From positions 1 to 16,355 of IMG/VR virus record IMGVR_UViG_3300029822_000764: a stretch of 16,355 bases of DNA. One strand, written 5' to 3'. The notes beneath the pieces were generated by a model. The model saw only the letters and a program-made list of their open reading frames with translations, did no database searches and had not been told where the DNA came from. The translations under genes and the position numbers were made by a program. This DNA is from a virus. Below are positions 1 to 16,355 of the stretch, one piece after another (position 1 is the first letter of the stretch; each line of letters opens with the position of its first letter).

Positions 1-86
1 AGATAGTTATACAAAAGAAGAAGTAGAGAAATTGTTTACTGACTATGAGAGCAATTACAATACTAAAATATTGGATTTTGAAGCAA
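1..86. repeat. Terminal overlap, copy 1 (identical to 16270-16355)
   Basis: All 86 nt (AGATAGTTATACAAAAGAAGAAGTAGAG...TTGGATTTTGAAGCAA) match nt 16270-16355 base for base. The overlap lies inside one uninterrupted reading frame, so it looks like the overlap of a circular assembly rather than a biological terminal repeat. Confidence 0.9.
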
Positions 87-421
87 GGATAAAGGATGCA
101 GATGCAAAGATACAGGCAGGAGCCAAACAAGCAGAACAATTAAAACTTTTAACTAAGAGTAATTTAGAAAATAGTATAAAAGTTGAGATGCTGAAGCAGG
201 GACTCGATGAAGATATGTTTGATTTAGTAGTAGATAGTCCAGATATTGCTGCGGCCAATAAAAAGATTGAAAAATTAGTGGCCATTAATAAAAAAAATAC
301 CATTAGTGAGGGTTACAGGCCACAAGAACATAATACTGTTAATAACGCCTATGAAGAAGCTAAAAACAAAGGTGATGTAGGCAGTATGTTAAAAGCTAAA
401 ATGAGTAAATTATTTCAGTAG
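1..421 (+). CDS. Phage scaffolding protein, 3' portion (gene starts at ATG 16256 and crosses the junction; full length 144 aa)
   Basis: Codons 2-4, 5-7 and onward continue the ORF begun at 16256 (MKFDKDSYTKEEVEKLFTDYESNYNTKILDFEARIKDADAKIQ...). The TTG at 32 in the ORF track is an internal Leu codon created by the window edge. The protein is highly charged and helical or coiled-coil-like, and it sits directly upstream of the major capsid gene. It resembles Phage_GP20/DUF4355-type scaffold proteins (by eye). Confidence 0.7.
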   Translation, partial: DSYTKEEVEKLFTDYESNYNTKILDFEARIKDADAKIQAGAKQAEQLKLLTKSNLENSIKVEMLKQGLDEDMFDLVVDSPDIAAANKKIEKLVAINKKNTISEGYRPQEHNTVNNAYEEAKNKGDVGSMLKAKMSKLFQ

Positions 422-492
422 TTTATACAGTGGATAATATCCACCGTTGAATATAATAAAAAATAAATAAAATTTAAGGAGAATGATAATAA

Positions 493-1377
493 ATGATAAA
501 AACAAGTGATTTTTTAAGTTTAGAAAACGTTGATTTAATGGCAGAGTTAGGCGTGGCACAACCTCTTGATACTCCTCTCTCAACACTTTTACTAGGAAGA
601 AACCAATATGATAAAGAAACTTCATATTTGGTTAACTGGAGAGAAAAGACACTGGACACCACTTCTGATATTAGTCAAGTCGAAGGTAGTGAGACTACAG
701 TTTTTCAAACATCTACTAGAGCAGAGAAATTAAATTACTGTGAAATATTTAAAAAAGCAGTAAGTGTATCAGGAACCGCAGAAGCTTCCAGTATTACAGG
801 AATTTCAGATTTATATACTTCTGAAATGGCTGATAGATTGGTAGAATTAAAAGTTAATTTAGAAGATAAAATAATCAATGGAACAAAAAATGATGGTAGT
901 TTAACTCCATTTATAAGACGTATGGATGGTTTATTACAGTTTGTTTATAGTGAAAATGCTGTAACAGATGCAGGAGCATTGACAGAAGCTTTATTTAAAA
1001 GCACAGTAAAAAAATTATGGGATAATGGATTAGGCAGTAATGGTTACATATGTATGGTTAATTCTGACTTTAAAGAATTAATAGACGGATTTTATAATAC
1101 ACAATATAACTACAATGCACCTACAGGGCAATTTGGACTTGTTGCTAATCAGATAAATACAAACTATGGACAGGTTCAGTTAATTTTAAATAGACATATG
1201 CCTGTAGATAAATTAGTAGTATTTGATCCTACATATGTAAGATTAGGATTCCTAAGACCTGTATTTTCAGAAATTCTTGGTAAAACAGGAGATAGTGTAA
1301 AAGGACAGGTTATTGGTGAAGCAACATTAAAAGTATTAAACACAAAAGCAGTAGCAACATTCACAAAAACAGCATAA
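493..1377 (+). CDS. Major capsid protein (HK97 fold, DUF5309/SU10-like family by eye)
   Basis: This 294-aa ORF lies right after the scaffold gene, with an AAGGAG upstream. Its sequence style is typical of this capsid family (N-terminal ...LSLENVDLMAELGVAQPLDTPLSTLL, C-terminal ...GQVIGEATLKVLNTKAVATFT). A strong terminator follows it. Confidence 0.8.
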   Translation: MIKTSDFLSLENVDLMAELGVAQPLDTPLSTLLLGRNQYDKETSYLVNWREKTLDTTSDISQVEGSETTVFQTSTRAEKLNYCEIFKKAVSVSGTAEASSITGISDLYTSEMADRLVELKVNLEDKIINGTKNDGSLTPFIRRMDGLLQFVYSENAVTDAGALTEALFKSTVKKLWDNGLGSNGYICMVNSDFKELIDGFYNTQYNYNAPTGQFGLVANQINTNYGQVQLILNRHMPVDKLVVFDPTYVRLGFLRPVFSEILGKTGDSVKGQVIGEATLKVLNTKAVATFTKTA

Positions 1378-1380
1378 TTA

Positions 1381-1411
1381 AACAGGGGAATTTAACTCCC
1401 TTGTTTTTTTA
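1381..1411 (+). terminator. Rho-independent terminator after the capsid gene
   Basis: AACAGGGGA (1381-1389) pairs with TCCCTTGTT (1397-1405): 9 bp with one G-U, and a 7-nt loop. A T7 run follows. Confidence 0.8.
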
Positions 1412-1441
1412 TTATAAATTAAATGATTAGGAGGAAATTAT

Positions 1442-1597
1442 ATGGACATAGTAGAGATTTCTAAAAATGGATTAGATAAAGAAATTTACACAAAAGAAGA
1501 AGTAAAACAAATATGTGAGCAATATTTATCTTTAATTTTTAGATTAGAAGATGTAATGCTGCAAGAGCAAAAATTATTAAAAAAAGCAATTAATTAA
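1442..1597 (+). CDS. Small 51-aa protein sharing the N-terminal motif of the scaffold protein
   Basis: It is not in the ORF track because it is under 60 aa. AGGAGG lies 7 nt upstream of ATG 1442. Translation: MDIVEISKNGLDKEIYTKEEVKQICEQYLSLIFRLEDVMLQEQKLLKKAIN. DKEIYTKEEVKQICEQY aligns with scaffold DKDSYTKEEVEKLFTDY (9 of 17 identical; 15 identical nt ACAAAAGAAGAAGTA). Confidence 0.5.
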   Translation: MDIVEISKNGLDKEIYTKEEVKQICEQYLSLIFRLEDVMLQEQKLLKKAIN

Positions 1598-1691
1598 GTA
1601 AATTAAAGGAGTGTTTTTGAGTGATTAGAGAGATAAAAAATAAATTAATTTTAAGAAAGAAAGGTGAAATTATGAATTTTGATAGTGCTTA

Positions 1692-1798: not shown

Positions 1799-2605
1799 AT
1801 GAATAATAAAATAAAAAAACAATATCCTGAATGGATAAATAATGGAGTTAAATATGATAGTTGCTTAACAGATGACCTTGACAGTTTCTTTAGTTGTTTA
1901 CTATTAGAAAAAACACTAAATTATAAAATAACACATTTTTATAGTTTCGATAAGTTATATGAAGATATTACATATGTAAAAGACAGGCAATTAATAGGTG
2001 TTGATATGGATATGGTAAAATTTAACGCATGGGGGAATCACGTCTTAAAGAGTTATAATCCAAATTCTGCAAACATTAATAATATTTTAAGAATCGGGAC
2101 TGATACATATAAGTGGAAATACGCAGGAAGTGTTTTGCTCCAGATAATTAGTTACTATGATTTAGATATAAGTATGTTAACAGAAGAATGTTTAATGATT
2201 TTATTGGCTGTGGACACCACATTTAAAATGTATGGTTTTGATAAATCTAATTGCAGGAGATACCTAGTAGATATATTGGAATTACCAGAACTATATAAAC
2301 TATGTGAAAAACACAAACGAAATGAATTTTATAACTTAATAACAAAATATAATTTACATAAGAAAATATTTATAAATAAAGATGGCATGTTACAAACTGA
2401 AATTGATTTAAAATCATTAGAAGTTTTGTTTAATATGTCTTTTGTTTTACCCAAAAATCAATTTAAATTAATTAAAAATTATACAAACATTGGTTTAACT
2501 GCATATCAATATGATTTAAAAAAAGATGAATTTAAGGAACAGGGTAAAACATTATTCACAAAGGCATGGACTAGCAATTATTATATTAAATTATCTTATT
2601 ATTAA
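1799..2605 (+). CDS. Hypothetical protein, 268 aa (acidic motif clusters DDLD, VDMD, GNH, AVD)
   Basis: This is a long ORF in AT-rich DNA, which is unlikely by chance. There is no Shine-Dalgarno sequence before ATG 1799, and an in-frame stop at 1775 rules out an upstream start. I cannot recognise any family by eye. Confidence 0.6.
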   Translation: MNNKIKKQYPEWINNGVKYDSCLTDDLDSFFSCLLLEKTLNYKITHFYSFDKLYEDITYVKDRQLIGVDMDMVKFNAWGNHVLKSYNPNSANINNILRIGTDTYKWKYAGSVLLQIISYYDLDISMLTEECLMILLAVDTTFKMYGFDKSNCRRYLVDILELPELYKLCEKHKRNEFYNLITKYNLHKKIFINKDGMLQTEIDLKSLEVLFNMSFVLPKNQFKLIKNYTNIGLTAYQYDLKKDEFKEQGKTLFTKAWTSNYYIKLSYY

Positions 2606-2630: not shown

Positions 2631-3131
2631 ATGACAATAACTAAAATGTTAAAAGAAATTAATGAAGCAGTAAGTATAGGACAGCAAATTGTATTGGATG
2701 GAGAAACAGGCCTAATGGAAGTTTTGTTTTGTAATGGACAAATGATTTTAAAAATACAAGATGGACAAGAATGTTTTAATTATAGCTGTAAAGTAACTAA
2801 TGAAAATTCTATCTCGAATCTTATTATACAAGAATTAATAAATGAAATATACCAAAAGGACTTATTGCCCAGAAAATATGAAATAAAAAGAATTAAAAAA
2901 TATTTGGATAGACAATTAGAAAGAATTTTTAAGTGGAAAGCAAAAATTGTTATGATGAAAAAACAAAAAGTTTATGATTTTGGACTGGAGCATAAAGTTA
3001 CACAAAAGCTAAATGAAATAAATGAAAACATATATATTAATTGGAAAACAATGGATGATATTAAGGCGGATTTATATGAGTATGAAGTTTTCAAGGATAT
3101 ATTGTTTCAATCTTTAAAAGAATTACCATAG
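2631..3131 (+). CDS. Hypothetical protein, 166 aa, with a Lys/Glu-rich helical C-terminal half
   Basis: GAAAGGAAG lies upstream of ATG 2631, 25 nt after the previous stop, so it probably forms an operon with 1799-2605. A terminator follows. Confidence 0.65.
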   Translation: MTITKMLKEINEAVSIGQQIVLDGETGLMEVLFCNGQMILKIQDGQECFNYSCKVTNENSISNLIIQELINEIYQKDLLPRKYEIKRIKKYLDRQLERIFKWKAKIVMMKKQKVYDFGLEHKVTQKLNEINENIYINWKTMDDIKADLYEYEVFKDILFQSLKELP

Positions 3132-3209: not shown

Positions 3210-3389
3210 ATGATTAATTTTAATATTAATAAAAAATATTTGGCTGATGCGTTGAGTTGGCTGGGCTTTAGATATTACAAATACAACACAAGTTCTGGAG
3301 TTATTTATTCCTTTGAAAGGACAGACGAATTTCTGGAAGCCATGAAACAACTAATTGAATTTAAAAAAATATATGGAAAAAAGTATTAG
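3210..3389 (+). CDS. Small 59-aa protein, DUF5659-like (by eye)
   Basis: AAAGGAGAG lies 8 nt upstream of ATG 3210. Translation: MINFNINKKYLADALSWLGFRYYKYNTSSGVIYSFERTDEFLEAMKQLIEFKKIYGKKY. The pattern L..L...GF......G..Y.FE.T.EF.EA is typical of small Firmicute phage and plasmid proteins of that family. I prefer it to the overlapping minus-strand ORF 3144-3350. Confidence 0.5.
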   Translation: MINFNINKKYLADALSWLGFRYYKYNTSSGVIYSFERTDEFLEAMKQLIEFKKIYGKKY

Positions 3390-3580: not shown

Positions 3581-4531
3581 ATGATACATACAATTGAGTA
3601 TGCAACAATTATGATAGATGATATTGAATTAATAAAAGATAATTTCAAGATAACAAAAGAAGAAAAACAATTAGTATATTATAGAAAATATAGGGCATTA
3701 GATTTTAAATATTATCAAGTATATAATGTATTACATATAAAAATAAACTTAAATAGATTATTAGATAAAGATGTAATAGTGGAAGGTGATTATTCTAAAG
3801 TATTAAAAGAATATAAGAAACAATTTTATGAGTTTGGATTCTACTGGACTAATCCAACTTATCAATTAAATCGAGTGGATTATAAGAGTGATATAATTAC
3901 AGAAAATAAGGATATATATATAAAATTATTGAAAAAGGCATCTAATAATTATCGTGCATTAAAACAATATAGTAAATATAAATCTTCTGTCTATTATAAT
4001 TCTAAAAGCATGAATATAAATGTTTATGATAAAGAGCAAGAATTAATTGATACAGATAGTGAATTATTAGTTGATATTAATAAATATAAAAATATGTTAA
4101 GATTTGAAGTTCAACTAAAAAGAAATAAATTATATTATTTAGAAAAGACATGGGGACAGACCAGAGAATTAGTAAATTATTTTCATCAAAAAGATCACGA
4201 TTACTGGATTAATTATGCTTTAAAAAAAATAATATATTGTGGTGATTATTATAATTTATATCACAGCAAAAAAATCTTGCAGGAGCATTACAGTAAAAGT
4301 ATGGTGGGCAAACTAACTGAATTGCAAAAAGACATTTCTATAAATGGAATTAGTGAAGCAAAGAAAAATTATACAAGTGCAACATTCAATAATCATATCA
4401 AGAAATTAGAATCTGTGGTTAATCCTATATTAATACCAAAAGGCGAGGGCATAACACATTTAAAGAACATATTTAATTTTACAGATGAAAATATTTATCT
4501 ATTAAATGAATATTGTTTAAGAGCATCTTAA
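3581..4531 (+). CDS. Rep_trans-like protein (rolling-circle replication initiator or MOB_T-relaxase-like), 316 aa
   Basis: AAGGAG lies upstream. Three spaced motifs recall the Rep_trans / phage CRI layout (R.D...D, Y.K, R.E.Q): LNRVDYKSDI (aa 96-105), NINVYDKEQE (aa 145-154) and LRFEVQLKR (aa 173-181). The ORF itself is solid, but the family call is by eye only. Confidence 0.5.
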   Translation: MIHTIEYATIMIDDIELIKDNFKITKEEKQLVYYRKYRALDFKYYQVYNVLHIKINLNRLLDKDVIVEGDYSKVLKEYKKQFYEFGFYWTNPTYQLNRVDYKSDIITENKDIYIKLLKKASNNYRALKQYSKYKSSVYYNSKSMNINVYDKEQELIDTDSELLVDINKYKNMLRFEVQLKRNKLYYLEKTWGQTRELVNYFHQKDHDYWINYALKKIIYCGDYYNLYHSKKILQEHYSKSMVGKLTELQKDISINGISEAKKNYTSATFNNHIKKLESVVNPILIPKGEGITHLKNIFNFTDENIYLLNEYCLRAS

Positions 4532-4718: not shown

Positions 4719-4949
4719 ATGGAAGCAATATTTACACAAATAATTAATAGTAGTCCAATACTAGGAGTAATGTTAGTGTTCTGGTATTTTAACAGACAAG
4801 ATTATAAAAGTTTTGTTGATAGAGTCCAGGCAGAAAATGCAAATAGAGAAAAGAATTATCAAGATACAATCACAACATTATCTAATAATTTAAATATTGT
4901 GAAAGATGTGCAGCAGGATATAGAAGAAATAAAATATAAATTAAAATAA
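4719..4949 (+). CDS. BhlA/UviB-family holin-like small membrane protein (76 aa from ATG 4719)
   Basis: Translation: MEAIFTQIINSSPILGVMLVFWYFNRQDYKSFVDRVQAENANREKNYQDTITTLSNNLNIVKDVQQDIEEIKYKLK. It has one N-terminal TM helix and a charged coiled C-terminus ending in an ..D.EEIK.KL pattern, as in B. subtilis BhlA and C. perfringens UviB. ATG 4719 has a GAAAGGA RBS. The GTG 4677 in the track has none and sits in a hairpin. Confidence 0.7.
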   Translation: MEAIFTQIINSSPILGVMLVFWYFNRQDYKSFVDRVQAENANREKNYQDTITTLSNNLNIVKDVQQDIEEIKYKLK

Positions 4950-4973: not shown

Positions 4974-5396
4974 ATGGCTAGAAATAATTTTAGAGAAGAA
5001 TTAAACAAACTAGCTAAAAAAAACAGGAAGAAATTTTTATATTTTTGCTTCATAAATAAGATTGATAATATAACAATTAAGTATTCTCAAATAAATAGGG
5101 ATGAATTTATGAGCAGATGGAATTTTAGTGAAATTTCTATGGAAACATTCAAACAATGGGAAGGTTCACAGGAATATCAAAATTTATATGGGTTGCTAAT
5201 GGAAATCAGGAGCAATAAAGATTTATATGATATTTATAATGTTGTAAGGGAAAAGGCGTTAAGTGGAGATGATAAAGCAGTAAAAACCTTTTTAGTATTA
5301 AGAAAAGAATTAAAAAATAAAACAATAAATGTAAATGTTGTAGAAGATAAAGAAGAAGGACAACAAGAAGAAGATTCATTGGATATTTCAGAATAG
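4974..5396 (+). CDS. Putative terminase small subunit (assigned by position)
   Basis: This 140-aa ORF has an AAAGGAAG RBS and lies immediately upstream of the large terminase. It has a basic N-terminus, a helical middle and an acidic tail. The only support is synteny and size. Confidence 0.45.
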   Translation: MARNNFREELNKLAKKNRKKFLYFCFINKIDNITIKYSQINRDEFMSRWNFSEISMETFKQWEGSQEYQNLYGLLMEIRSNKDLYDIYNVVREKALSGDDKAVKTFLVLRKELKNKTINVNVVEDKEEGQQEEDSLDISE

Positions 5397-5406
5397 GAGG
5401 AATTAA

Positions 5407-6972
5407 GTGAATATTACACATGATCAGAAATTAGAAAAAATAAATAATAATGCTATTTTGTGGTTAAAGAATTTTGTTAAGATAGTGGACAATCATTCTC
5501 AATTAATTCCATTTAAAGCAAATGACCAACAAAAAAATTTTATAAAGAATATGGGCAAGTTTAATATTATTGGTAAGGGTAGGCAACAAGGATTTACAAC
5601 AGTTTCTTTAGGACTTATGTTGTGGATAGCAATTACAAAGCCAAATTCACAATGCCTTATGTTATCTTATAGTGGGGATTCGGTAAGGGACATATTCACA
5701 AAATTACAAAATATGTATTTATCAATTCCAGAAAAATATACAGTAAAATCAACTAAATTTAATAGACATGAATTATCCTTAGAGAATGGAAGTAGGATAA
5801 GAAATGCAACTGTAGGAACAAAAGAATTAGGTAGGAGTGGGACATTTAGTTATATACACTGTACAGAGTTCGGATACTGGACTAATGAACAAGATACAAA
5901 AGGTTTACTAGGTTTAGAGCAATCACTGGCAAAAGATAAAGATTCGAAGATCATTATTGAATCGACAGCAAACGGTCTAGGCAACAATTATTATAGATTA
6001 TTTACTAATGCTTATAAAGGACATAGTAAATATAAAGCTTTCTTTTATCCTTGGCATGAGAACAAAACAGCATTTTATGATGATTATAAAGAAGCAGAAG
6101 CATGGTATAAATCCACTAATCATGGGGTGAGGTTGTCCGTTGGGGACTTAACACCTTATGAAAAAGGATTATATGATAAAAATTGCTCTCTACTCCAAAT
6201 TATGTGGAGACAATGGAAATTATTAGATACACCTAAAGATCAATTTTCACAGGAATATCCTGCAACACCTGACGAGATGTTTATTAGTTCAGATGTTGGT
6301 GTATTTGATGCAGATACAATTACAGAGAGATATAATTATCTTCCTCCAATTATGAATATTAAGGAGATAAAAGAATTGCCTAATAGTTTAAGAATTTATT
6401 ATGGTAATGGATTAAATATATATAAAGATATAAAGAAAACTGAAAGATATTTTGGTGGTATAGATACAGGAGCAGGATTAAAGGGTGATTATAGTTCTAT
6501 ATGTATATTAGATAGTTCAGGAGAACAGGTTGCAACATTCAATAGAAATGATGTGCCTGTTTATAAATTTGCAAAAATATGTTATGACTTAGGATATTAT
6601 TTTAATTATTGCTTATATTTACCAGAAAGAAATACATATGGATTAGATTTAATTACTAGATTAAGGAAAGAAATGGGATATATACAAATTCTAAAGATTA
6701 AACGGTTCGATAAAATAAAAGGTGAAAAAACATATGATTATGGCTGGTATACTGACAATGTAAGCAAAAGTAAATTAGTTATGGACTTTAAAGAAGCTTT
6801 TGAGGAAGGTATGGTACTTGTGAATGATAGAAATACATTAGACCAGATGAGAATATTTCAAGAAAAGAATGGTTCATTCGGAAATTCTAAAGGTTCACAG
6901 AATCATGATGACTTAGTCGATAGTTATTGTCTAGCAATACAAGCACTAAAGAGTGGCAAGTCATATATTTAA
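5407..6972 (+). CDS. terL: Terminase large subunit
   Basis: AGGAGG lies 6 nt before GTG 5407. It has a Walker A-like GKGRQQGFTT and a Walker B/catalytic YIHCTEF. RNase H-like nuclease motifs are present (GGIDTGAG..DYSSICILD and a terminal HDDLVDSY). At 521 aa the size is typical. Confidence 0.9.
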   Translation: MNITHDQKLEKINNNAILWLKNFVKIVDNHSQLIPFKANDQQKNFIKNMGKFNIIGKGRQQGFTTVSLGLMLWIAITKPNSQCLMLSYSGDSVRDIFTKLQNMYLSIPEKYTVKSTKFNRHELSLENGSRIRNATVGTKELGRSGTFSYIHCTEFGYWTNEQDTKGLLGLEQSLAKDKDSKIIIESTANGLGNNYYRLFTNAYKGHSKYKAFFYPWHENKTAFYDDYKEAEAWYKSTNHGVRLSVGDLTPYEKGLYDKNCSLLQIMWRQWKLLDTPKDQFSQEYPATPDEMFISSDVGVFDADTITERYNYLPPIMNIKEIKELPNSLRIYYGNGLNIYKDIKKTERYFGGIDTGAGLKGDYSSICILDSSGEQVATFNRNDVPVYKFAKICYDLGYYFNYCLYLPERNTYGLDLITRLRKEMGYIQILKIKRFDKIKGEKTYDYGWYTDNVSKSKLVMDFKEAFEEGMVLVNDRNTLDQMRIFQEKNGSFGNSKGSQNHDDLVDSYCLAIQALKSGKSYI

Positions 6973-9600: not shown

Positions 9601-9948
9601 ATGACTAATATAGATAGAATCAAGCTAGAAGTTGAGGGCGTTACTCTTACAGACGATACCCTTGCAATCTACTTACAAGAGAATAACCTCACGCCCAATG
9701 ATGAATATGCTCCAACTAGCAACATAAATAAGAAAAATATATATAGAACTGCACTTTCAATTTTAGAATCAATTGCAAATAATCCTTCATATATGAGGAA
9801 TGTTAAAAATGATGATATGACAATATCTGAATTTAGTAAAAATCTAAATGATAGGATAGATTCCTTAGATAGAAAAATCAGATTAATGTCAACTGATGAT
9901 AATGACAATGGAACTGGAGCATCTTTTGTTTATTTATTTACAGAATAG
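9601..9948 (+). CDS. Putative head-tail connector / adaptor-like protein (115 aa)
   Basis: The N-terminus IDRIKLEVEGVTLTDDTLAIYLQENNL...IYRTALSILESIA resembles gp6/gp15-type head completion proteins by eye. It sits next to the structural Big_2 gene. The functional call is weak. Confidence 0.4.
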   Translation: MTNIDRIKLEVEGVTLTDDTLAIYLQENNLTPNDEYAPTSNINKKNIYRTALSILESIANNPSYMRNVKNDDMTISEFSKNLNDRIDSLDRKIRLMSTDDNDNGTGASFVYLFTE

Positions 9949-9959: not shown

Positions 9960-11672
9960 ATGGTAAATGACTACTTTAGTATAAAAGATACATATAATAC
10001 AATGCTTACTATGTTCTCAAAAGATTTTACAATAAATAATATCATAAAGCAAGGATTATTAAAAGAAATAAATGATACAAATAGTTCGATAGATGAAAAA
10101 TATCTTTTAACTGATACAGAATTATCACAGGGAAATATCATTAAATATAATAATATGAATTATATGATTATTACGAAGAATGAGAATATTAATAATATTT
10201 ATAATAAATACACAATTAGAAAATGCCCATATAATGTAAATTTTGTAATAGGTGGCATCATAAATGCAATTCCTTCGATAATTGAAACAAAAACACTGGA
10301 TTTATCATCTTCACAGTATATTGTATTACCAGATGGAAAAATCGTGGTCACAATAGAAAGAAATGATATAACGAATACCATTAGTGTAAATGATAAATTT
10401 ATAAAGATGGGATTTCCTTGGATGATAACAGCAATAGACAAGTCACTGGAGGGACTTATATTATTACACGCTGATATACAACAAATTGGCTCTGGTGATG
10501 ATATTACTAATGAAATTCCTTCAGGTGCTTCATTGGCTTCATATAGTTTTACAATTACACCTAGTTCAACAACAGTAAGAAAAGGAGATACACAACAATT
10601 AAATGTAAGTGTAAGCAGAAATAACACTGTACTCACTAATCCTAATCTTAAATATTCAAGTAGCAACACTAATATACTTACAGTGTCTAATTCTGGATTG
10701 ATAACAGCAATAGAAGAGGGTACTTGTAATATAACTGTTACCTGTATAGAAGAATATAATTCTGGAAGTACAACAGAAACAGCAACAGTTACACCATTAC
10801 ATAATTATGTATTAAGTGTAAGTCCTACGTCTGTTAGCTTAGATACAGGAAGTACACAACAATTAATTCCTACGGTCACAGATTATGGAATTGATGTCAA
10901 AAATGCTACTTTTTCTTATGTATCAGGTAATACAAGCATAGCCACAGTGTCTAATTCTGGATTAGTTGAAGCCATAGGAGCAGGAAATACAACAATTATG
11001 TGTACTTTCATTGGAGAGGATTCACAGACATATACACAACAAATACCAGTAGGAGTTGAATTGGCTCATATTTATGTATTAAGTGTAAGTCCTAGCAGTA
11101 TTTCTATTGATAATAATAGCACCCAACAATTGACAGCCAGTGTCACAGATAAAGGAATTACTGTATCTAATCCAACAATAACATATTCAAGCAATAATAC
11201 GAGTATAGCAACAGTTAATTCTACAGGTCTTATTACTGCAACAGGTGTTGGGAACTGCAATGTTACGTGTAGTTTTGTGGGTGAGGATTCACAGACATAT
11301 AGTCAAGTAATTTCAACAACAGTTAATGCTGTAGTAGCTAAAACAATTAAATTCTCAACGAATTACAACGGAGATACAGAAGATATTACAAATTATACCG
11401 ACAATGGAAATCCTTATAAAGTATTACAAGGTGATACAATTACAGTTACAGTATACGCATTTCAAACCAGTACACAATCAAATGATACGTTTACATTTTC
11501 TTTTAGTGGTGTAACTGCTAGTTATTACACAAAAACAACACCAGATGGAAACCATTTTACAGTCCATAATGTTAATGGTGATGGAGGAGAATATTTAATG
11601 TGTCAAGCCACAAGTAATTTAGATTCTACACTAAATAGTCATATATGTATACGATTGGCTGGAGAATGGTAA
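9960..11672 (+). CDS. Virion surface protein with three tandem Big_2 (bacterial Ig-like group 2) domains, 570 aa
   Basis: The three repeats are at aa 195-278, 283-366 and 372-456. Each shows the Big_2 signature (..V.P.S.S...G.TQQL...V......N....YSS.N..IATV...GL..A...G...). They are flanked by an unassigned N-terminal domain of about 190 aa and a C-terminal beta-rich domain of about 110 aa. Confidence 0.8.
   Translation: MVNDYFSIKDTYNTMLTMFSKDFTINNIIKQGLLKEINDTNSSIDEKYLLTDTELSQGNIIKYNNMNYMIITKNENINNIYNKYTIRKCPYNVNFVIGGIINAIPSIIETKTLDLSSSQYIVLPDGKIVVTIERNDITNTISVNDKFIKMGFPWMITAIDKSLEGLILLHADIQQIGSGDDITNEIPSGASLASYSFTITPSSTTVRKGDTQQLNVSVSRNNTVLTNPNLKYSSSNTNILTVSNSGLITAIEEGTCNITVTCIEEYNSGSTTETATVTPLHNYVLSVSPTSVSLDTGSTQQLIPTVTDYGIDVKNATFSYVSGNTSIATVSNSGLVEAIGAGNTTIMCTFIGEDSQTYTQQIPVGVELAHIYVLSVSPSSISIDNNSTQQLTASVTDKGITVSNPTITYSSNNTSIATVNSTGLITATGVGNCNVTCSFVGEDSQTYSQVISTTVNAVVAKTIKFSTNYNGDTEDITNYTDNGNPYKVLQGDTITVTVYAFQTSTQSNDTFTFSFSGVTASYYTKTTPDGNHFTVHNVNGDGGEYLMCQATSNLDSTLNSHICIRLAGEW
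10542..11327 (+). repeat. Intragenic tandem repeats encoding the three Big_2 domains (267-nt period for copies 2 and 3)
   Basis: TATGTATTAAGTGTAAGTCCT is identical at 10806-10826 and 11073-11093. GAGGATTCACAGACATATA is also shared by copies 2 and 3. Copy 1 is more diverged. Confidence 0.8.
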
Positions 11673-11812: not shown

Positions 11813-12835
11813 TTACCATCCCAATAATCCTTTTTCTAGTTCTTTAATGTCTTTAGTATCATATTTTCTTTGTTTAAAATTGTCAAATGTGGTGGTCTTT
11901 GTATTCTCCTTTGGTTCATTAAATCCTTTTAAAAGTTCTCTCATATAGCCAATAATATTATCAACATTTTTATTAATAGCATAGTCGTAGCATTTTTTTA
12001 TCAACTCAATATTATTTTTAGAGTCCTCTAGTAAACAAGTGGCTTCAAGTTCTGTAATAGTATGCTTTGTAAATAATGCTTGGACTTCTTTTATTAAATC
12101 CTGTTTTTGTTGTGTTTCTGATGTAACTGCTCCTGCTGCTATTTCATTTTTATTATTCTTTATTGTAAACTTAATACTTGTTACCTTCCGGCCTGTTTTT
12201 ATTTCTTCAAACTTAAAGGATATATCACTTTTATCTAATTCCTTTTGTGCCTGAAGAATAACTTTCCTTTTAAAATCACCATATAATTTATATTCATGTG
12301 GCTCTATACAAAACATAGTTCTTAATGCTTCAATACTTGCGGTTCTTTCTCCAATTCCTTCATATTGCTTTAATAATTCATATATTCTACATGAATAGTT
12401 GCTATTAAATGTTATTACTTTATCTAATGATAACTTTGTAAATCTATTTTTTAACTGCAATAGATAAGGTTTTAATTTATCATCAAAACAGAGTTCAATA
12501 CTACCATCATTAAAATATTCTGCGGAGGATAGCCATTTTGTTTTTAAAATTGAATTCTCCTTTACAATAACTAACTCCCTATTTCTTAAACTGTCTATAT
12601 GTTGGCTTAATTCGTTAAAACTAATTTTATGTTTTGATAAAATATTATTTATTTCAGTTTGCGTAAATCTATAACTTTTAAAGTCAATATCATCTTTACT
12701 TATTTTAGTAGTTAGTATATAAATTAATCTTTGCTCTTGCAGATTTAATTTATATGATGCTTCAATTATATAGTTAGATTTTACCATCAAGGTTTTATAT
12801 TTTAATAAATCACCCCTAGTAACCATTTTTATCAC
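11813..12835 (-). CDS. Rep_3 / RepB-family theta-replication initiator
   Basis: The N-terminus ...VKSNYIIEASYKLNLQEQRLIYILTTKISKDD... is the classic Rep_3 (initiator RepB) signature. The second winged-helix half has SCRIYELLKQYEGIGERT. Iterons lie 60-155 nt upstream. The start is either GTG 12835 or, more likely, ATG 12826 (AGGGTGA RBS). Confidence 0.85.
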   Translation of the reverse strand: MIKMVTRGDLLKYKTLMVKSNYIIEASYKLNLQEQRLIYILTTKISKDDIDFKSYRFTQTEINNILSKHKISFNELSQHIDSLRNRELVIVKENSILKTKWLSSAEYFNDGSIELCFDDKLKPYLLQLKNRFTKLSLDKVITFNSNYSCRIYELLKQYEGIGERTASIEALRTMFCIEPHEYKLYGDFKRKVILQAQKELDKSDISFKFEEIKTGRKVTSIKFTIKNNKNEIAAGAVTSETQQKQDLIKEVQALFTKHTITELEATCLLEDSKNNIELIKKCYDYAINKNVDNIIGYMRELLKGFNEPKENTKTTTFDNFKQRKYDTKDIKELEKGLLGW

Positions 12836-12895
12836 CCTATACCATTTTATATTATGTCTTTTAAGTATGTCAAGTCATATTTAAAGTCATAATTA

Positions 12896-12990
12896 GTACG
12901 AATTGGTCATATTTCAGTACGAATTGGTCATATTTCAGATTATAATTAGTACGAATTGGTCATATTTCAGTACGAATTGGTCATATTTCA
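12896..12990. repeat. Replication origin iterons: four 21-bp direct repeats GTACGAATTGGTCATATTTCA
   Basis: Exact copies occur at 12896-12916, 12917-12937, 12949-12969 and 12970-12990. They form two abutting pairs separated by the 11-nt GATTATAATTA, equivalent to a 53-bp tandem duplication including ATAATTA. A partial copy (GTCATATTT) is at 12874-12882. Confidence 0.85.
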
Positions 12991-13049
12991 GTTAAATAAC
13001 TATAGATATATCAATGGTTTGTGATATGCCTAAAATATTAAAACTTGTT

Positions 13050-13108: not shown

Positions 13109-13393
13109 TTATTCTTCTGTAAAATCTAAATTATCAGTACACCAGTTGCACATTAAATTTATTAACTCATTTCGAGAATAACCACTTTTTTTACTTATTG
13201 CAGTAAGTTTTTTCAGTAAATCATTCTCCATATAGACAGGGAATGTCTTTTTATTGGTCTTATCAATTTTCTTCTTTGCTAGGTGAAATTTACTTTCAAT
13301 ATTGATATTATCTTTTGCAATTTGATCTTTATTCTTAATATTAGAGTTAACATTAATATTATCTTTGATACTATCTTTAAAATTATCACTCAT
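13109..13393 (-). CDS. Ribbon-helix-helix partition or centromere-binding protein (ParG/omega-like), 94 aa
   Basis: It lies immediately downstream of parA, with a GGAGGT RBS. A low-complexity Asn/Lys N-terminal tail is followed by a C-terminal RHH pattern: FPVYMENDLLKKLTAISKKSGYSRNELINLMCNW (beta strand, helix, helix). Confidence 0.65.
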   Translation of the reverse strand: MSDNFKDSIKDNINVNSNIKNKDQIAKDNINIESKFHLAKKKIDKTNKKTFPVYMENDLLKKLTAISKKSGYSRNELINLMCNWCTDNLDFTEE

Positions 13394-13460: not shown

Positions 13461-14216
13461 CTATGAATCTATCCTATATAATAACTCATAATATAAATCA
13501 TTAAATGGTTTACCATAAGTCATATTATATTCTTGAATTGTTTTATGTAATGCCACTGATTCTTTATATTTTACACTATCATAAATTATTGTATCAAACA
13601 ATTTAGCTTTTAATTCTTCTTGTAATACTTCATTAAATTGTTTATTAAATAGGGTTCTTTTTTTAAATCTATTTCGCAGTATTCCTAAGAGTTTTAAATC
13701 GTCAATTAATCCATTTTCTTTTAAATTATTTACCACTTTATCAACCATGTTTAGTCCCTGTAATGCTGATGTGCTATTGTCTATTATTTCAATATAATAG
13801 TTACTCATGACCAATGAATTTTGAACTGTTATTCCTAAGAATGGACTATTATCTATAAGAATATAATCAAAGTCATTGTCAAACTGGGCAAACTTGTTTT
13901 TCAGGATGCTTTCCCTATTTCTTTTGTTGTATAACTCATTTTCAAGTATGGCACTGTCAATAGTATTGCTTATCACATAGATGTATTCATTATAGATACT
14001 AATACAATCATTAAAGGTAACTTTAGGATTAGTATATAAATCATACATATTATATTGGCTATTTATATTGAGTATTTGAGTTATGTTACTTTGACTATCA
14101 TTATCTAGTATTAATACTTTACGTTTTAATTTTGACATAGCTCCAGCCAGATTAATTGTAGATGTGGTCTTTCCAACTCCACCCTTAACATTCAGTAATG
14201 TTATTATTACACTCAT
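13461..14216 (-). CDS. parA: ParA/Soj-family partition ATPase (type Ib size, 251 aa)
   Basis: It has the deviant Walker A motif LNVKGGVGKTTSTINLA and then VLILDNDSQSN. Walker B-like ILIDNSP is also present. Confidence 0.9.
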   Translation of the reverse strand: MSVIITLLNVKGGVGKTTSTINLAGAMSKLKRKVLILDNDSQSNITQILNINSQYNMYDLYTNPKVTFNDCISIYNEYIYVISNTIDSAILENELYNKRNRESILKNKFAQFDNDFDYILIDNSPFLGITVQNSLVMSNYYIEIIDNSTSALQGLNMVDKVVNNLKENGLIDDLKLLGILRNRFKKRTLFNKQFNEVLQEELKAKLFDTIIYDSVKYKESVALHKTIQEYNMTYGKPFNDLYYELLYRIDS

Positions 14217-14281
14217 ATAATATCACCTACCTTTAATGATTATTATATATTATATAAATGAAGATGTAAATATATATTATA

Positions 14282-14316
14282 ATATTACATATTAGTATTA
14301 AGTATTAGTATTAAAA
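14282..14316. promoter_or_regulatory. Candidate par operator or centromere boxes upstream of parA
   Basis: AGTATT occurs three times, at 14294, 14301 and 14307 (6-7-bp period). The 13-mer ATATTACATATTA at 14282-14294 is repeated exactly at 13432-13444, upstream of the RHH gene. Confidence 0.3.
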
Positions 14317-14572
14317 TATTATTAGCGACATATTTTTTAACTTCATAGAGCCATTTTAAGCCACTTCTATTTTTAGGCATACAATTACACTACTTCAAAT
14401 TTTAAGGCACGTTAAATGCGATTTTTTGAGAAATGGACACTTGAAAAACGCTGATAAAACCGTATTCTTAAAAATCAAAAAATCAGGGGTGGATAGTCAT
14501 AAAAAATAAAATTCTAACGGTTTAGAAATGTGCTGAAACTTATAAGTTTACTGGGCTTTTTAAGTAATTATT

Positions 14573-15575
14573 CTAAAAATAAATAAGGTTTATTATATGA
14601 GATAGAAAAGATATTTTTTAAAATGTTAAGAAAATAGAATCATATAAAAATCAAGGATATAACAATGTGTTTAGATACCCATATCCAAAAATAAATAAGG
14701 TTACTTATAGGGGAAGAGAGAGCAAAAAATAAAATTCTCGCAAATAGAAATTAAAATGTTGACCAAATAGAACCATATAAATATTAAGGTTATATCAATA
14801 CTTTATAACAGTGTACTTGAAATTGCTTATAGTAGATAAGATAAAAATGTGAAGTAATAGAAATTAAAATGTTGACCAAATAGAATCATCTTAAAATCTA
14901 TTGGTATTATTTAGTTTTCAGGTAATGCTCCTAAAAATAAATAAGGTTACTTTAAGGGAGAGAGGAAATAAAAATCGGACGAAATAGAAATTAAAATGTT
15001 AAGAAAATAGAAATGTGTAAATATCAAAGTTATAGCAACACTTTACATGACATAGAAATTTATAACTTTTTTACAAAGTGTAGTATATTATTTATATATC
15101 AATAGATACAGCCATTTTAGCTAATGTGTCTCTATAGGAAGAAAAAATGTTGACCAAATAGAAACACCAATAGCGAGAAAATAGAATCCAATGTATATTA
15201 AGCATTTATCAAGGTTTTTAAGAAGATAAAAAAAGTTTATTATATAGAGAATGAATAGAAATTATTTTTGCTAGACAAATAGAAATTAAAAATGTTGACC
15301 AAATAGAAACCTATAATTATCAAGGTTATAACAATGTATATAAGATAATAAAAAAAATTTATTATATGAGTAATGGAAGAAAAAATATTCAACTAAAAAA
15401 TTAGTCCGATCAGGACAACCGCTGATATATATTAGTTTCCACGCCCATGAGGAAAAGACGTTATATGATAATAAAAAATCCGAAAAATAGAAAAACACTG
15501 ACAACATTGATATTACTAGTGTTACAAGTTATTTTGTATGTTTATTTATCAGTAATGGAAAGAAGATAAAACTGT
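14573..15575 (+). repeat. Array of six degenerate 113-151-bp same-orientation repeats with a 31-bp promoter-like core
   Basis: The core AAATAGAAATTAAAATGTTGACCAAATAGAA is at 14742-14772. Near-identical copies are at 14856-14885, 14982-15012 (TTAAGA variant) and 15277-15308 (one extra A). Partial copies are at 14620-14639 and 15144-15163. There are secondary modules CTAAAAATAAATAAGGTT (14573, 14686, 14931) and TTTATTATATGAG (14589, 15358; variant at 15236). No credible ORF is present. Confidence 0.8.
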
Positions 15576-15913
15576 GACGGTAGCAAAAAGTTTTATAATC
15601 ATTTATATTATTAGGGTTTGATACCATGTCAAACATTTTGCTTATAGTGTAATAGTTGAATTTAGTTATCTAAATTAGATGGCCAACTTGAACTATTATA
15701 TATAGTTCACTTATTGTATGTTATGATTGAACATTATTAGTAATTTGCTTGTTTAAGTGGTGCAAATCCACCTTCCTCGAAAATTAATGAAAACAAGCTA
15801 ATTCTGTAGCAGGTAAACTGTAAGATAAATAATATTTTATCTGTACTAAAATTTTAGTATCCTATGGAAGAAGTCATTTTCTATTTTGGACAATAACTTA
15901 AAATAGTTTTAAT

Positions 15914-16043
15914 ATATTTTTTATGCCTAAAATGGGGACTAACATTATTAAGAATTAAATAATATCAATACTTTTAAGAAGAAATTAATTCCTTGTATAT
16001 AGATATAAGGAGTTTTTTTTATATTTTTTATGCCTAAAAATAG
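15914..16043. repeat. 19-nt direct repeat ATATTTTTTATGCCTAAAA (two copies) just upstream of the HTH gene
   Basis: Exact copies are at 15914-15932 and 16021-16039. The 15-mer TATGCCTAAAAATAG (16029-16043) is the exact reverse complement of 14367-14381. Confidence 0.7.
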
Positions 16044-16062
16044 GTAAAGATTTAATGTTGAG

Positions 16063-16266
16063 GTGAGAGAGGTGGAGAGAGAAGAACTTATAAGAAAAAT
16101 AAAATACTTAAAAGAGCATAAAGGAGTTACTTATAGTTTTATAGCAAAACAAGTGGGATTGGACGGAACTACTATAAGTCACTTTGTTACATCGGGTAGG
16201 TATCTTTCTAAAGAAAGAATTAATAAATTAAATAAATTTGTAGGAGGTTATTTAAATGAAATTTGA
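16063..16266 (+). CDS. Small helix-turn-helix DNA-binding protein (67 aa)
   Basis: VTYSFIAKQVGLDGTTISHFVTSGRYLS is a plausible HTH. The start is ambiguous: GTG 16063, or GTG 16072 preceded by AGGTGA. The 3' end overlaps the scaffold ATG by 11 nt, which suggests translational coupling. Confidence 0.6.
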   Translation: MREVEREELIRKIKYLKEHKGVTYSFIAKQVGLDGTTISHFVTSGRYLSKERINKLNKFVGGYLNEI

Positions 16267-16355
16267 CAAAGATAGTTATACAAAAGAAGAAGTAGAGAAA
16301 TTGTTTACTGACTATGAGAGCAATTACAATACTAAAATATTGGATTTTGAAGCAA
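16256..16355 (+). CDS. Phage scaffolding protein, 5' portion (continues at nt 1 across the circular junction)
   Basis: AGGAGG (16242-16247) lies 8 nt upstream of ATG 16256. The frame runs off the window end and continues in frame at 2-421. Confidence 0.7.
   Translation, partial: MKFDKDSYTKEEVEKLFTDYESNYNTKILDFEA
16270..16355. repeat. Terminal overlap, copy 2 (identical to 1-86)
   Basis: Base-for-base identity with nt 1-86. Confidence 0.9.

What the first reader, a model, noticed from the sequence alone, without database searches (positions are those of the whole stretch)
1..16355. Plasmid-maintained, head-only phage module: candidate capsid-forming satellite plasmid
One 16.3-kb circle carries a complete capsid-building and DNA-packaging kit: scaffold, HK97-fold capsid, putative TerS, TerL, portal and a connector-like protein. 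It also carries a full low-copy plasmid kit: a Rep_3 initiator with four iterons, and ParA plus an RHH partner. I cannot find a tail tube, sheath, tape measure, baseplate, endolysin, integrase, repressor-type immunity gene or DNA polymerase. Only about 2.5 kb of ORFs with no functional assignment remains (1442-1597, 1799-3389 and 9157-9435), besides the partly assigned 3581-4531, 9601-9948 and 9960-11672. That is too little for a tail. Known capsid-forming satellites (cf-PICIs) are chromosomally integrated islands of about this size. They build their own small capsids and take only tails from a helper phage. Known phage-plasmids are much larger and are full phages. An episomal, iteron- and ParA-maintained element with a head-only module would combine both lifestyles, and as far as I know it has not been described in low-GC Firmicutes. 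A genome of about 16 kb fits a small capsid of the size class used by SaPI-type satellites.
Basis: partly seen in the sequence, partly recalled or inferred. Interest (0 to 1): 0.9.

Follow-up and report, generated by a model that had tools for sequence, protein, structure and literature searches.

The report
Head-only phage satellite kept as plasmid
A 16.3-kb circular Clostridium plasmid carries genes to build and fill a phage head but none for a tail, so it most likely spreads on tails borrowed from another phage; this lifestyle has so far been reported only from marine Vibrio.

Summary
The window is a 16,269-bp circle; 86 bp are repeated at the two ends. It was assembled independently, with different break points, in at least three datasets, and a 96%-identical 16,536-bp variant exists.

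- Head and packaging genes: scaffold-like protein, SU10-type capsid, TerL, SPP1-type portal, and a positional TerS.
- Neck-like genes: a highly conserved 115-aa adaptor-like protein and a YomX-family protein with three Big_2 domains.
- Plasmid genes: Rep_3 with four iterons, and ParA plus a small Arc/RHH-like protein.
- Tail genes: none found. The two largest unknowns resolve as a rolling-circle replication initiator (3581-4531) and a DHH-like enzyme fold (1799-2605). Under 400 aa stay unassigned.
- Selection: head genes are under purifying selection (dN/dS 0.07-0.28).

Relatives in Clostridium and Bacillus share the head-only chassis but carry integrases. One is a 16.06-kb island bounded by 65-bp repeats.

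Best reading: a capsid-forming satellite whose integrase was replaced by a Clostridium plasmid replicon. The concept is not new: cf-PISP was proposed for Vibrio in 2025-26. This lineage is unrelated to it and is found in Bacillota. No helper phage was identified and nothing was tested experimentally.

The parts
1..421 (+). Scaffold-like protein (144 aa). The ATG is at 16256 and the gene crosses the circle junction.
   Evidence: The ORF runs through the junction. It lies directly upstream of the capsid gene and is 54-61% identical in all relatives. No family hit was found. The role is inferred from position and helical, coil-rich sequence.
493..1377 (+). Major capsid protein, SU10/DUF5309 type (HK97 fold)
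   Evidence: PF17236 E 2.5e-78 and phrog_1328 E 2.8e-64. It is 72-77% identical to the capsid of the integrated Clostridium islands, 46% to the Bacillus island and at most 37% to capsids of real phages or phage-plasmids.
1442..1597 (+). Small ORF (51 aa), function unknown
   Evidence: No family hits. A 43%-identical ORF sits at the same position in L038.
1799..2605 (+). Conserved core protein with a DHH-like alpha/beta fold; probably a phosphoesterase or nuclease, not a virion part
   Evidence: AF2 pLDDT 94.8. The best PDB matches are all DHH-family (NrN, RecJ-Cdc45, PggH) but weak, E 0.04-0.1. D69, N80, H81 and D139 are invariant; D25, D26 and D28 are nearly so. It is present in every relative.
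2631..3131 (+). ORF of 166 aa, function unknown
   Evidence: No significant hits. It is 71% identical to an ORF in L039/L040.
3210..3389 (+). Small conserved ORF (59 aa), function unknown
   Evidence: 44-49% identical in all Clostridium relatives. Weak hit to phrog_32519, which has no known function.
3581..4531 (+). Rolling-circle replication initiator (G2P/Rep_trans superfamily), sitting in the variable 'replication slot'
   Evidence: 342 homologous clusters. 21 of 37 members hit PF05144 Phage_CRI and 5 of 37 hit PF02486 Rep_trans. The window protein itself is below threshold. ORFs at this slot in relatives are not homologous to it; L038 has a helicase there.
4719..4949 (+). BhlA/UviB-family holin-like protein (the ORF is open from GTG 4677)
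   Evidence: PF10960 E 2.3e-7, 31.1 bits against a cut-off of 22.6. The SPbeta family member yomB lies in that phage's lysis cassette. No endolysin is present in the window.
4974..5396 (+). Putative small terminase
   Evidence: Position only. It lies immediately upstream of terL and is conserved in all relatives at 44-58%. No Pfam or PDB match.
5407..6972 (+). Large terminase
   Evidence: phrog_2 E 8e-30; Terminase_6C and 6N hits are weak. dN/dS is 0.08 against L032.
7075..8484 (+). Portal protein, SPP1 gp6 type
   Evidence: PF05133 E 1.7e-59 and phrog_64 E 7e-49.
8485..9156 (.). Non-coding gap of 670 bp after the portal gene
   Evidence: No ORF of 60 aa or more. No remnant of the small recombinase that some relatives (L033, L028, L038) carry here. 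No Rfam match.
9157..9435 (+). ORF of 92 aa, function unknown, followed by a terminator-like hairpin
   Evidence: No hits. Terminator-like site at 9454-9474.
9601..9948 (+). Adaptor-like neck protein (115 aa); the most conserved protein of the family
   Evidence: Mean column identity is 80%, and 54% between Clostridium and Bacillus. It always lies directly upstream of the YomX-type gene. In the complete siphovirus contig L028 its 55%-identical homolog heads the neck-tail block. No PDB or Pfam match. The role is inferred.
9960..11672 (+). YomX-family N-terminal domain (about 190 aa), three Big_2 Ig-like domains and a C-terminal beta domain; probably a head-closure or neck protein with Ig arms
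   Evidence: Big_2 E 7e-28. Precomputed YomX_N and YomX_C hits. hhalign against SPbeta YomX gives 95.3% probability, E 2.3e-8. YomX lies between the virion protein yonB and the tail genes. AF2 pLDDT 88. The best labelled BFVD hits are 'Head closure knob'. One homolog hits phrog_161, head closure Hc1, at E 0.0034.
11813..12835 (-). Rep_3 theta-type replication initiator
   Evidence: Rep3_N E 2.8e-29 and Rep3_C E 4.5e-18. It is 65-67% identical to Rep proteins of Clostridium estertheticum and C. tagluense plasmids.
12895..12992 (.). Four iterons (AGTACGAATTGGTCATATTTCAGT), spaced 21, 32 and 21 nt
   Evidence: the repeat finder family D8, 96-100% identity.
13109..13393 (-). Small Arc/RHH-like protein; probable centromere-binding partner of ParA
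   Evidence: phrog_582 Arc-like repressor, E 3.8e-5. It lies downstream of parA in the same operon, with a terminator-like site after it.
13461..14216 (-). ParA partition ATPase
   Evidence: AAA_31 E 1.4e-35, CbiA E 5e-20 and phrog_164 E 4e-43.
14575..15340 (+). Array of six promoter-like repeat units of about 58 nt, inside the 1.8-kb non-coding region upstream of parA; candidate centromere or control region
   Evidence: the repeat finder families D1-D6. A 30-nt core gives 3 matches against 0 expected. The 19-nt core occurs only in the plasmid lineage among 36 loci. The arrangement differs in L032.
16063..16266 (+). Small HTH (Xre-like) regulator at the head of the scaffold-capsid operon
   Evidence: HTH_3 E 0.0039, below the cut-off. 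It is conserved at 32-62% in all relatives at the same position.
16270..16355 (.). Assembly overlap: a duplicate of bases 1-86
   Evidence: Exact 86-bp terminal direct repeat.

Best explanation
The window is a capsid-forming phage satellite that is maintained as a plasmid in a Clostridium host.

Dormant state (inferred from family knowledge). Rep_3 binds the four iterons and drives theta replication. ParA and its small RHH partner partition the copies, possibly through the repeat array upstream of parA.

Induction (inferred). A helper phage of the same cell is induced or infects, and the element switches on its own operons.
- The G2P/Rep_trans-type initiator starts rolling-circle replication, which gives concatemers.
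- The scaffold-like protein and the SU10-type capsid protein assemble on the portal into small heads sized for about 16 kb.
- TerS and TerL package the element.
- The 115-aa adaptor-like protein and the YomX-type Ig-armed protein close the portal and form the docking face.
- Pre-assembled siphovirus tails made by the helper attach to that face.
- Release relies on the helper's endolysin, perhaps with timing help from the BhlA-like holin.

Shown: gene content, circularity, absence of tail genes, purifying selection, and integrated siblings with the same chassis.

Inferred: the trigger, the two-mode replication, the capsid size, tail piracy and the identity of the helper.
For: Replicon
- Circular 16,269-bp replicon recovered three times, plus a 16,536-bp sister at about 96% identity.
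- A bona fide Clostridium plasmid replicon: Rep_3 is 65-67% identical to C. estertheticum/tagluense plasmid Reps, with four iterons and ParA plus an Arc/RHH-like protein.

Head kit and absence of a tail
- Head and packaging genes are identified.
- No ORF has tail, tape-measure, baseplate or lysin signatures in Pfam, PHROGs or NCBIfam.
- The two largest unknowns are an RCR initiator and a DHH-like enzyme fold.
- The rest (51, 166, 59 and 92 aa) is too small for a tail. The related full phage-plasmid pBFI_5 spends about 10 kb on neck and tail genes.

Relatives
- IMG/VR Clostridium contigs of 14-20 kb share the whole chassis but carry tyrosine integrases and no rep or parA.
- The Bacillus sp. REN3 island is 16,060 bp between 65-bp direct repeats, has an integrase and no tail genes.
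- The L029 island ends with the YomX/Big_2 gene, then a TIR-domain cargo gene and host genes.
- L033 uses a serine recombinase.
- The neck pair (adaptor-like plus YomX-like) also occurs in a complete 40-kb siphovirus contig, directly upstream of the tail genes and tape measure. Compatible tails therefore exist.

Selection
- dN/dS against the sister plasmid: terL 0.08, capsid 0.11, terS 0.07, o1799 0.16, scaffold 0.28.

Precedent
- The same lifestyle was proposed for Vibrio cf-PISP.
Against: - No helper phage was identified. No virion, transduction or copy-number data exist.
- The TerS, adaptor and head-closure roles rest on position, conservation and weak remote hits.
- A holin-like gene is present. 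The published cfPICI detection model treats holin as a forbidden component.
- There is no Stl-like sensor, only a 67-aa HTH.
- The RCR initiator is assigned through homologs. The window protein itself does not reach Pfam significance.
- The o1799-o2631-o3210 cassette is 63-72% identical to a cassette that sits next to a 2402-aa tape-measure-like gene in 33-37-kb contigs. Larger tailed relatives of part of this element therefore exist.
Confidence: 0.65

Rival explanations
1. It is a defective leftover. A Clostridium plasmid captured, or a phage-plasmid decayed to, a head module that no longer makes particles. The element persists only as a plasmid.
For: No tail, no endolysin and no recognisable lysis-lysogeny switch. 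At least one integrated relative is clearly decaying: an IS91-family insertion splits the o1799 homolog in C. pasteurianum. L002 carries an IS66.
Against: All head genes are intact and under purifying selection between two diverged plasmid variants. The same head-only chassis of about 16 kb recurs in Clostridium and Bacillus with different maintenance modules. A conserved design is not what random decay produces.
Confidence: 0.12
2. It is a self-sufficient minimal virus. The head, together with the YomX-type Ig-armed neck protein, and perhaps the unknown ORFs, forms an infectious particle without any helper. The particle would be a tail-less or stub-tailed phage-plasmid.
For: The 570-aa protein carries three Big_2 domains and a C-terminal beta domain that could bind cell surfaces. 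A holin-like gene is present. The C. scatologenes element L026 couples a head module ending in YomX/Big_2 directly to XhlA and a GH25 lysin, with no tape measure.
Against: No nozzle, tube, ejection or cell-wall-degrading protein was found. In a complete phage the YomX homolog sits in the neck position, ahead of a normal siphovirus tail module. There is no endolysin, so the element cannot lyse the cell by itself. No Caudoviricetes member known to me infects with only an adaptor and a closure protein (own knowledge).
Confidence: 0.08
3. It is an assembly artefact, or the excised circular form of an integrative island or of a larger phage.
For: All records are short-read metagenome contigs. The relatives are integrative.
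Against: Identical circles with different break points come from different datasets, and a diverged sister circle exists. The circle has no integrase or recombinase but has a complete Rep_3/iteron/ParA module, which the integrated relatives lack. Circle length is consistent (16,355 minus 86 equals 16,324 minus 55).
Confidence: 0.03

Closest known systems
[quoted passage not shown]
   Same: Extrachromosomal circle of about 16 kb (TG54 is 15.8 kb). Both have parA plus a rep gene, their own capsid, portal, terminase and head-tail joining genes, no tail genes and no integrase. In both cases the lifestyle is inferred from genomics.
   Different: The head module is unrelated. Here it is an SU10/DUF5309 capsid with a scaffold-like protein and no protease or HNH. 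TG54 has a PF05065 capsid, protease and HNH, and nests within gammaproteobacterial cf-PICIs. The host phylum differs (Bacillota against Vibrio). This element also has a second, rolling-circle initiator and a holin-like gene, and lacks an Stl-like regulator. The authors found no cf-PISP outside Vibrio.
[quoted passage not shown]
   Same: Elements of about 14-16 kb that encode capsid, portal, TerS, TerL and head-tail connectors but no tails. The integrated siblings of this plasmid (L003, L011, L029, L038) have the island architecture, with an integrase at one end.
   Different: The window has no integrase, no HNH and no prohead protease. Its capsid family is different. It has a holin-like gene, which is a forbidden component in the cfPICI model. 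It is a plasmid, not a chromosomal island. The described Firmicutes cf-PICIs use portal-protease-capsid plus HNH-TerS-TerL.
Phage-plasmids of Bacillota with the same capsid family, for example Bacillus cereus pBFI_5 (NZ_CP009637, 42.5 kb)
   Same: Plasmid-maintained. The capsid is DUF5309/SU10 type (36% identity), with an SPP1-type portal and scaffold-based assembly without a protease.
   Different: pBFI_5 is a full siphovirus: head-tail connector, tail tube, tape measure, further tail proteins, holin, amidase and an AimR arbitrium-type receptor. The window has none of the tail or lysin genes and is 2.6 times smaller.
P4 and pDolos (satellites that can live as plasmids)
   Same: Satellite elements that can replicate extrachromosomally (own knowledge for P4; pDolos is cited).
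   Different: P4 encodes no capsid protein and remodels P2 capsids. pDolos parasitises a filamentous phage. Neither builds its own HK97-fold head.

Membership tests
cf-PISP (satellite-plasmid, as defined for Vibrio TG54) | Extrachromosomal circular element of satellite size | tested here: met
   16,269-bp circle recovered in three assemblies, plus a 16,536-bp sister.
cf-PISP (satellite-plasmid, as defined for Vibrio TG54) | Plasmid maintenance genes (parA, rep) and no integrase | tested here: met
   Rep_3 with iterons, ParA and an RHH-like protein. No recombinase domain in any ORF.
cf-PISP (satellite-plasmid, as defined for Vibrio TG54) | Own capsid, portal and terminase genes, and no tail genes | tested here: met
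   The largest unknowns were resolved as non-structural.
cf-PISP (satellite-plasmid, as defined for Vibrio TG54) | Capsid nested within known cf-PICI capsids (PF05065), with protease and HNH | tested here: not met
   The capsid is PF17236 SU10_MCP. No protease or HNH hit. The element is analogous, not homologous.
cf-PISP (satellite-plasmid, as defined for Vibrio TG54) | Induction by a helper phage and transfer on the helper's tails | not testable with these tools
   Needs induction, EM and transduction experiments. This is also untested for TG54 itself.
cfPICI (SatelliteFinder model) | Integrase plus AlpA/Stl-type regulator plus pri-rep at the left end | tested here: not met
   No integrase. 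Only a 67-aa HTH. Replication is by Rep_3 and an RCR initiator. The integrated siblings do carry an integrase.
cfPICI (SatelliteFinder model) | TerS, TerL, portal, capsid, head-tail adaptor and connector present | tested here: inconclusive
   TerL, portal and capsid are clear. TerS, adaptor and closure are assigned only by position, conservation and weak remote matches.
cfPICI (SatelliteFinder model) | No tail and no holin (forbidden components) | tested here: not met
   No tail genes, but a BhlA holin-family gene scores above the Pfam cut-off.
Phage-plasmid (complete temperate phage maintained as a plasmid) | Full virion module (head and tail) and lysis module, plus plasmid functions | tested here: not met
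   No tail and no endolysin. Compare pBFI_5.
Iteron-regulated Rep_3 plasmids | Rep3_N/Rep3_C initiator with adjacent direct repeats (iterons) | tested here: met
   The closest Reps are on Clostridium plasmids.
Type Ib partition system (ParA plus small RHH centromere-binding protein plus parS repeats) | Walker-type ParA, a small RHH protein in the same operon, and repeated centromere sites nearby | tested here: inconclusive
   ParA is strong. The RHH assignment is weak (E 3.8e-5 to Arc-like). A repeat array specific to the plasmid lineage lies upstream, but binding is untested.

The most novel reading that the evidence does not exclude
The particle needs no helper. A small SU10-type head is closed by the adaptor-like protein and the Ig-armed YomX-type protein, and that assembly is itself the infectious, effectively tail-less unit. 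The Big_2 arms would bind the cell. This would make the element, and the tail-less head-plus-lysis element in C. scatologenes, a new minimal morphotype of duplodnavirus that lives as a plasmid.
Probability: 0.07. Interest if true: 0.9.

Novelty: new variant of a known kind. Interest (0 to 1): 0.62.

Why it matters
- Satellites that build their own heads and steal only tails were recognised in 2022-23. A plasmid-borne version was proposed only in 2025-26, for Vibrio, with none found elsewhere.
- This element would show that the same solution arose again in anaerobic Bacillota, from an unrelated head lineage.
- One head-only chassis of about 16 kb is combined with a tyrosine integrase, a serine recombinase or a Rep_3/ParA plasmid replicon. 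Maintenance mode would therefore be a swappable module of satellites.
- Current satellite detectors require an integrase, HNH and protease and forbid holins, so they would probably miss this family.
- In practice, plasmids of this kind would move between clostridia on phage tails. That is a transfer route not counted by conjugation-based mobility typing; the related Clostridium plasmids here are typed 'non-mobilizable'.
- The pairing of a theta replicon with a rolling-circle initiator suggests a testable way of switching from maintenance to packaging.

Tried and rejected
- Whole-window megablast against deposited phages and plasmids gave no match.
- tblastn of the adaptor-like protein and of the YomX N-domain against deposited phages gave nothing, and the adaptor-like protein also gave nothing against plasmids.
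- A homolog search with only the N-terminal 200 aa of the 570-aa protein returned nothing, although the full-length query did find homologs. I treat this as a tool-sensitivity issue.
- Foldseek of the full 570-aa model against PDB was swamped by Ig-repeat matches and said nothing about the N-domain.
- Profile searches against PDB sequences gave only chance-level hits for the adaptor-like protein, the YomX N-domain, TerS, the RCR family, o1799, o2631 and o9157.
- hhalign of the adaptor profile against the Phage_connect_1 protein of C. scatologenes and against SPbeta YomZ showed no relation.
- hhalign of the RCR-initiator profile against the ORFs that occupy the same slot in four relatives showed no relation. 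The slot is therefore variable.
- Rfam found no RNA family anywhere in the window, and no tRNA was found.
- PADLOC found no defence genes.
- Searches of IMG/VR with Rep and ParA found no further plasmid-type members.
- I looked in the 8485-9156 gap for a remnant of the small recombinase seen in relatives and found none.
- I looked for a hairpin-type double-strand origin near the RCR gene and found nothing convincing.
- pCF016-16 of C. estertheticum (16,351 bp, Rep 50% identical) might have been a sister satellite. It is a lanthipeptide plasmid with no head genes.
- I considered that 1799-2605 could be a tail protein, because its homolog lies near a tape-measure-like gene in L039/L040. I rejected this because the model is a high-confidence alpha/beta enzyme-like fold with invariant acidic and His residues.

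Full report
**1. What is in the window**

The last 86 bases repeat the first 86, so the molecule is a 16,269-bp circle. The same sequence, 100% identical, occurs in ENA contig ERZ724040 NODE_2747 and in a Logan contig from SRR1562008. NODE_2747 is 16,324 bp and is broken inside terL; 16,324 minus a 55-nt overlap is again 16,269. A 'fermentation metagenome' contig (UOOI01002364, L032) closes on a 55-nt overlap into a 16,536-bp circle. It has the same gene order at about 88-100% nucleotide identity. A chimera or a collapsed larger genome is therefore very unlikely. GC content is about 25%.

**2. Gene inventory**

Clear assignments:
- SU10/DUF5309-type major capsid protein, 493-1377 (E 2.5e-78).
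- SPP1-type portal, 7075-8484 (E 1.7e-59).
- Large terminase, 5407-6972 (phrog_2 E 8e-30).
- Rep_3 initiator, 11813-12835(-).
- ParA, 13461-14216(-).
- A small Arc/RHH-like protein, 13109-13393(-).
- Four iterons of 21-24 nt at 12895-12992, directly upstream of rep.

Rep is 65-67% identical to Reps of Clostridium estertheticum and C. tagluense plasmids. That makes the maintenance module an ordinary Clostridium plasmid replicon and points to a Clostridium host.

The scaffold-like gene starts at 16256 and crosses the junction. Its role rests on position and sequence character, not on a family hit. A 67-aa HTH protein (16063-16266) precedes it and is conserved in all relatives. A BhlA-family holin-like gene lies at 4719-4949, above the Pfam cut-off. 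No endolysin is present.

**3. Are tail genes hidden among the unknowns?**

- *3581-4531.* It has 342 homologous clusters. Of 37 sampled members, 21 hit Phage_CRI (the filamentous-phage G2P rolling-circle initiator) and 5 hit Rep_trans. It is a replication initiator.
- *1799-2605.* It is conserved in every relative. The model has pLDDT 94.8 and is an alpha/beta fold. All its best PDB neighbours are DHH-family phosphoesterases, but the matches are weak (E 0.04-0.1). Acidic and His residues are invariant. This is an enzyme-like protein, not a virion part.
- *9960-11672.* The model has pLDDT 88: a beta-rich N-domain of about 190 aa, three Big_2 domains and a C-terminal beta domain.
  - The N-domain is homologous to SPbeta YomX (hhalign 95.3%, E 2.3e-8).
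  - In SPbeta, yomX lies four genes after the virion protein yonB and far upstream of the tape measure yomI.
  - In a complete 40-kb siphovirus contig (L028), the YomX homolog follows the homolog of 9601-9948. It is itself followed by two ORFs, YomN and a 1432-aa tape measure.
  - The best labelled viral structure matches are 'Head closure knob' proteins. One homolog weakly hits PHROG 'head closure Hc1'.
  - I read it as a neck or head-closure protein with Ig arms, at moderate confidence.
- *9601-9948.* This is the most conserved protein of the family: 80% mean column identity, and 54% between Clostridium and Bacillus. It has no detectable family. Its adaptor role is positional.
- *4974-5396.* TerS by position only.

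The ORFs that remain unassigned have 51, 166, 59 and 92 aa. The related full phage-plasmid pBFI_5 spends about 10 kb on connector, tube, tape measure and tail-tip genes. A self-encoded conventional tail is excluded.

**4. Relatives**

- IMG/VR holds Clostridium-type contigs of 14-20 kb. They share the order HTH, scaffold, capsid (72-77% identical), o1799, o3210, a variable ORF, TerS, TerL, portal, the 115-aa protein and the YomX/Big_2 protein. They have no rep, RHH or parA, and tyrosine integrases were confirmed in the two tested, L002 and L003.
- In Bacillus sp. REN3 the same chassis is a chromosomal island of exactly 16,060 bp. It lies between 65-bp direct repeats, with an integrase at one end and host genes on both sides.
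- Other examples:
  - L038: an island next to polA/coaE, with a helicase in the variable slot.
  - L029: the island ends with YomX/Big_2, then a TIR-domain cargo gene and host genes.
  - L033: a serine recombinase follows YomX/Big_2.
  - L024, C. pasteurianum: a decaying copy with an IS insertion.
- The ORF in the 'replication slot' differs between members and is not homologous to the window's RCR initiator.
- The family is thus a head-only chassis of about 16 kb, combined with interchangeable maintenance and replication modules. The window lineage is the plasmid version.
- Searches of IMG/VR with Rep or ParA found no further plasmid-type members.

**5. Are the head genes alive?**

Between the window and the 16,536-bp sister plasmid, substitutions are mostly synonymous. 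dN/dS values are terL 0.08 (83.5 synonymous against 35.5 non-synonymous differences), capsid 0.11, terS 0.07, o1799 0.16 and scaffold 0.28.

Divergence is mosaic. The stretch from rep to parA, and o9157, are 100% identical. The stretch from o1799 to terL is 87-92% identical. This indicates recombination with related elements, as is usual in phage-like gene pools.

**6. Mechanism**

See Best explanation. The only steps that are shown are gene content, circularity, absence of a tail, selection and the existence of integrated siblings. Two-mode replication (Rep_3 theta for maintenance, RCR for concatemers), the small capsid size, docking of helper tails and helper-dependent lysis are inferences. 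They rest on established knowledge of Rep_3 plasmids, Rep_trans/G2P initiators, terminase substrates and cf-PICI biology.

**7. Comparison with what is known**

- *cf-PICIs.* These are integrated and use HNH-TerS-TerL with portal-protease-capsid modules, including in Firmicutes. The published detection model forbids holins and expects an integrase.
- *cf-PISP.* A plasmid-borne capsid-forming satellite was proposed on genomic grounds for Vibrio crassostreae. TG54 is 15.8 kb and has parA and repA. The authors found none outside Vibrio.
- *This element.* It works like a cf-PISP but is not homologous to it. The capsid family is different, and it has no protease and no HNH. It also has an extra RCR initiator and a holin-like gene, and its host is a member of the Bacillota.
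- *Phage-plasmid.* It fails that definition because it has no tail and no lysin.
- Literature searches for satellite-plasmids outside Vibrio found nothing further.

I therefore rate it a new variant of a known kind. Its claim of novelty is narrower than stated.

**8. Limits**

No helper was identified. The neck assignments are weak. All the data are metagenomic. Parts of the element (o1799-o2631-o3210, at 63-72% identity) also occur in 33-37-kb contigs next to a tape-measure-like gene. This shows exchange with tailed relatives and hints at, but does not prove, candidate helpers.

Noticed in passing
window 14575-15340 (within the non-coding region 14217-16062): Six units of about 58 nt are spaced 113-174 nt apart. 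Each has AAATAGAA on both sides of a TTGACC -35-like box, followed by a -10-like box. The 19-nt core occurs only in the plasmid lineage among 36 loci, and the unit arrangement differs in the sister plasmid L032. This could be a centromere for ParA/RHH, a copy-control array or tandem promoters.
   Followed up: partly
window 8485-9156: A 670-bp non-coding gap follows the portal gene. At the equivalent place L033, L028 and L038 carry a small tyrosine recombinase; the Vibrio cf-PISP TG54 also has one between portal and adaptor. No remnant is detectable here.
   Followed up: partly
window 1799-2605: This conserved core protein has a DHH-like fold. Its top (weak) structural neighbour is NrN, the SAM-AMP phosphodiesterase linked to type III CRISPR signalling (9lqb). 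A role in degrading a signalling nucleotide as a counter-defence is conceivable but untested.
   Followed up: partly
window compared with L032 (UOOI01002364): Divergence is mosaic. rep, the RHH gene, parA and o9157 are 100% identical at nucleotide level, and the portal gene is 99.7% identical. The stretch from o1799 to terL is 87-92% identical. This indicates recent recombination that replaced part of the head and replication region.
   Followed up: yes
window 4719-4949: A BhlA/UviB-family holin-like gene lies just upstream of TerS, with no endolysin anywhere on the element. A 47%-identical copy lies between terL and portal in L033. The other relatives lack a detectable copy.
   Followed up: partly
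L026, Clostridium scatologenes CP009933 5255170-5277368: This prophage-like region has TerL, portal, MuF, DUF4355, capsid, a GLUG protein, a 428-aa ORF, Phage_connect_1, a 91-aa ORF, YomX/Big_2, XhlA and a GH25 lysin, followed by host ruvAB. It has a head and a lysis cassette, but no tube or tape measure in the 22 kb seen.
   Followed up: no
L039 and L040 (Logan SRR18683128 and SRR18683123; contigs of 33-37 kb), about 10001-19921: Homologs of o1799, o2631 and o3210 (63-72% identity) lie next to a 2402-aa protein with PhageMin_Tail, NLPC_P60 and SLT domains. The scaffold and capsid genes there are of a different type. It may be a tailed relative or a helper-type phage. The rest of these contigs could not be read.
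   Followed up: partly
L011, Bacillus sp. REN3 NZ_JAERSD010000026, locus 3122-19246: A perfect 65-bp direct repeat (3122-3186 and 19182-19246) bounds a 16,060-bp island. The island carries an integrase, a 449-aa GLUG-motif protein and the head-only chassis. The YomX homolog there is only 189 aa, with no Ig domains.
   Followed up: yes
L024, Clostridium pasteurianum CP112872, locus 8129-10741: An IS91-family transposase insertion splits the o1799 homolog of an integrated relative, so that copy is decaying. L002 carries an IS66-family transposase between TerS and TerL.
   Followed up: partly
L029 (ERZ724026 NODE_1227), locus 11712-12806: A TIR_2-domain gene sits directly after the YomX/Big_2 gene at the end of an integrated relative. 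This looks like a defence cargo at the satellite's edge. The window itself has no PADLOC hit.
   Followed up: no
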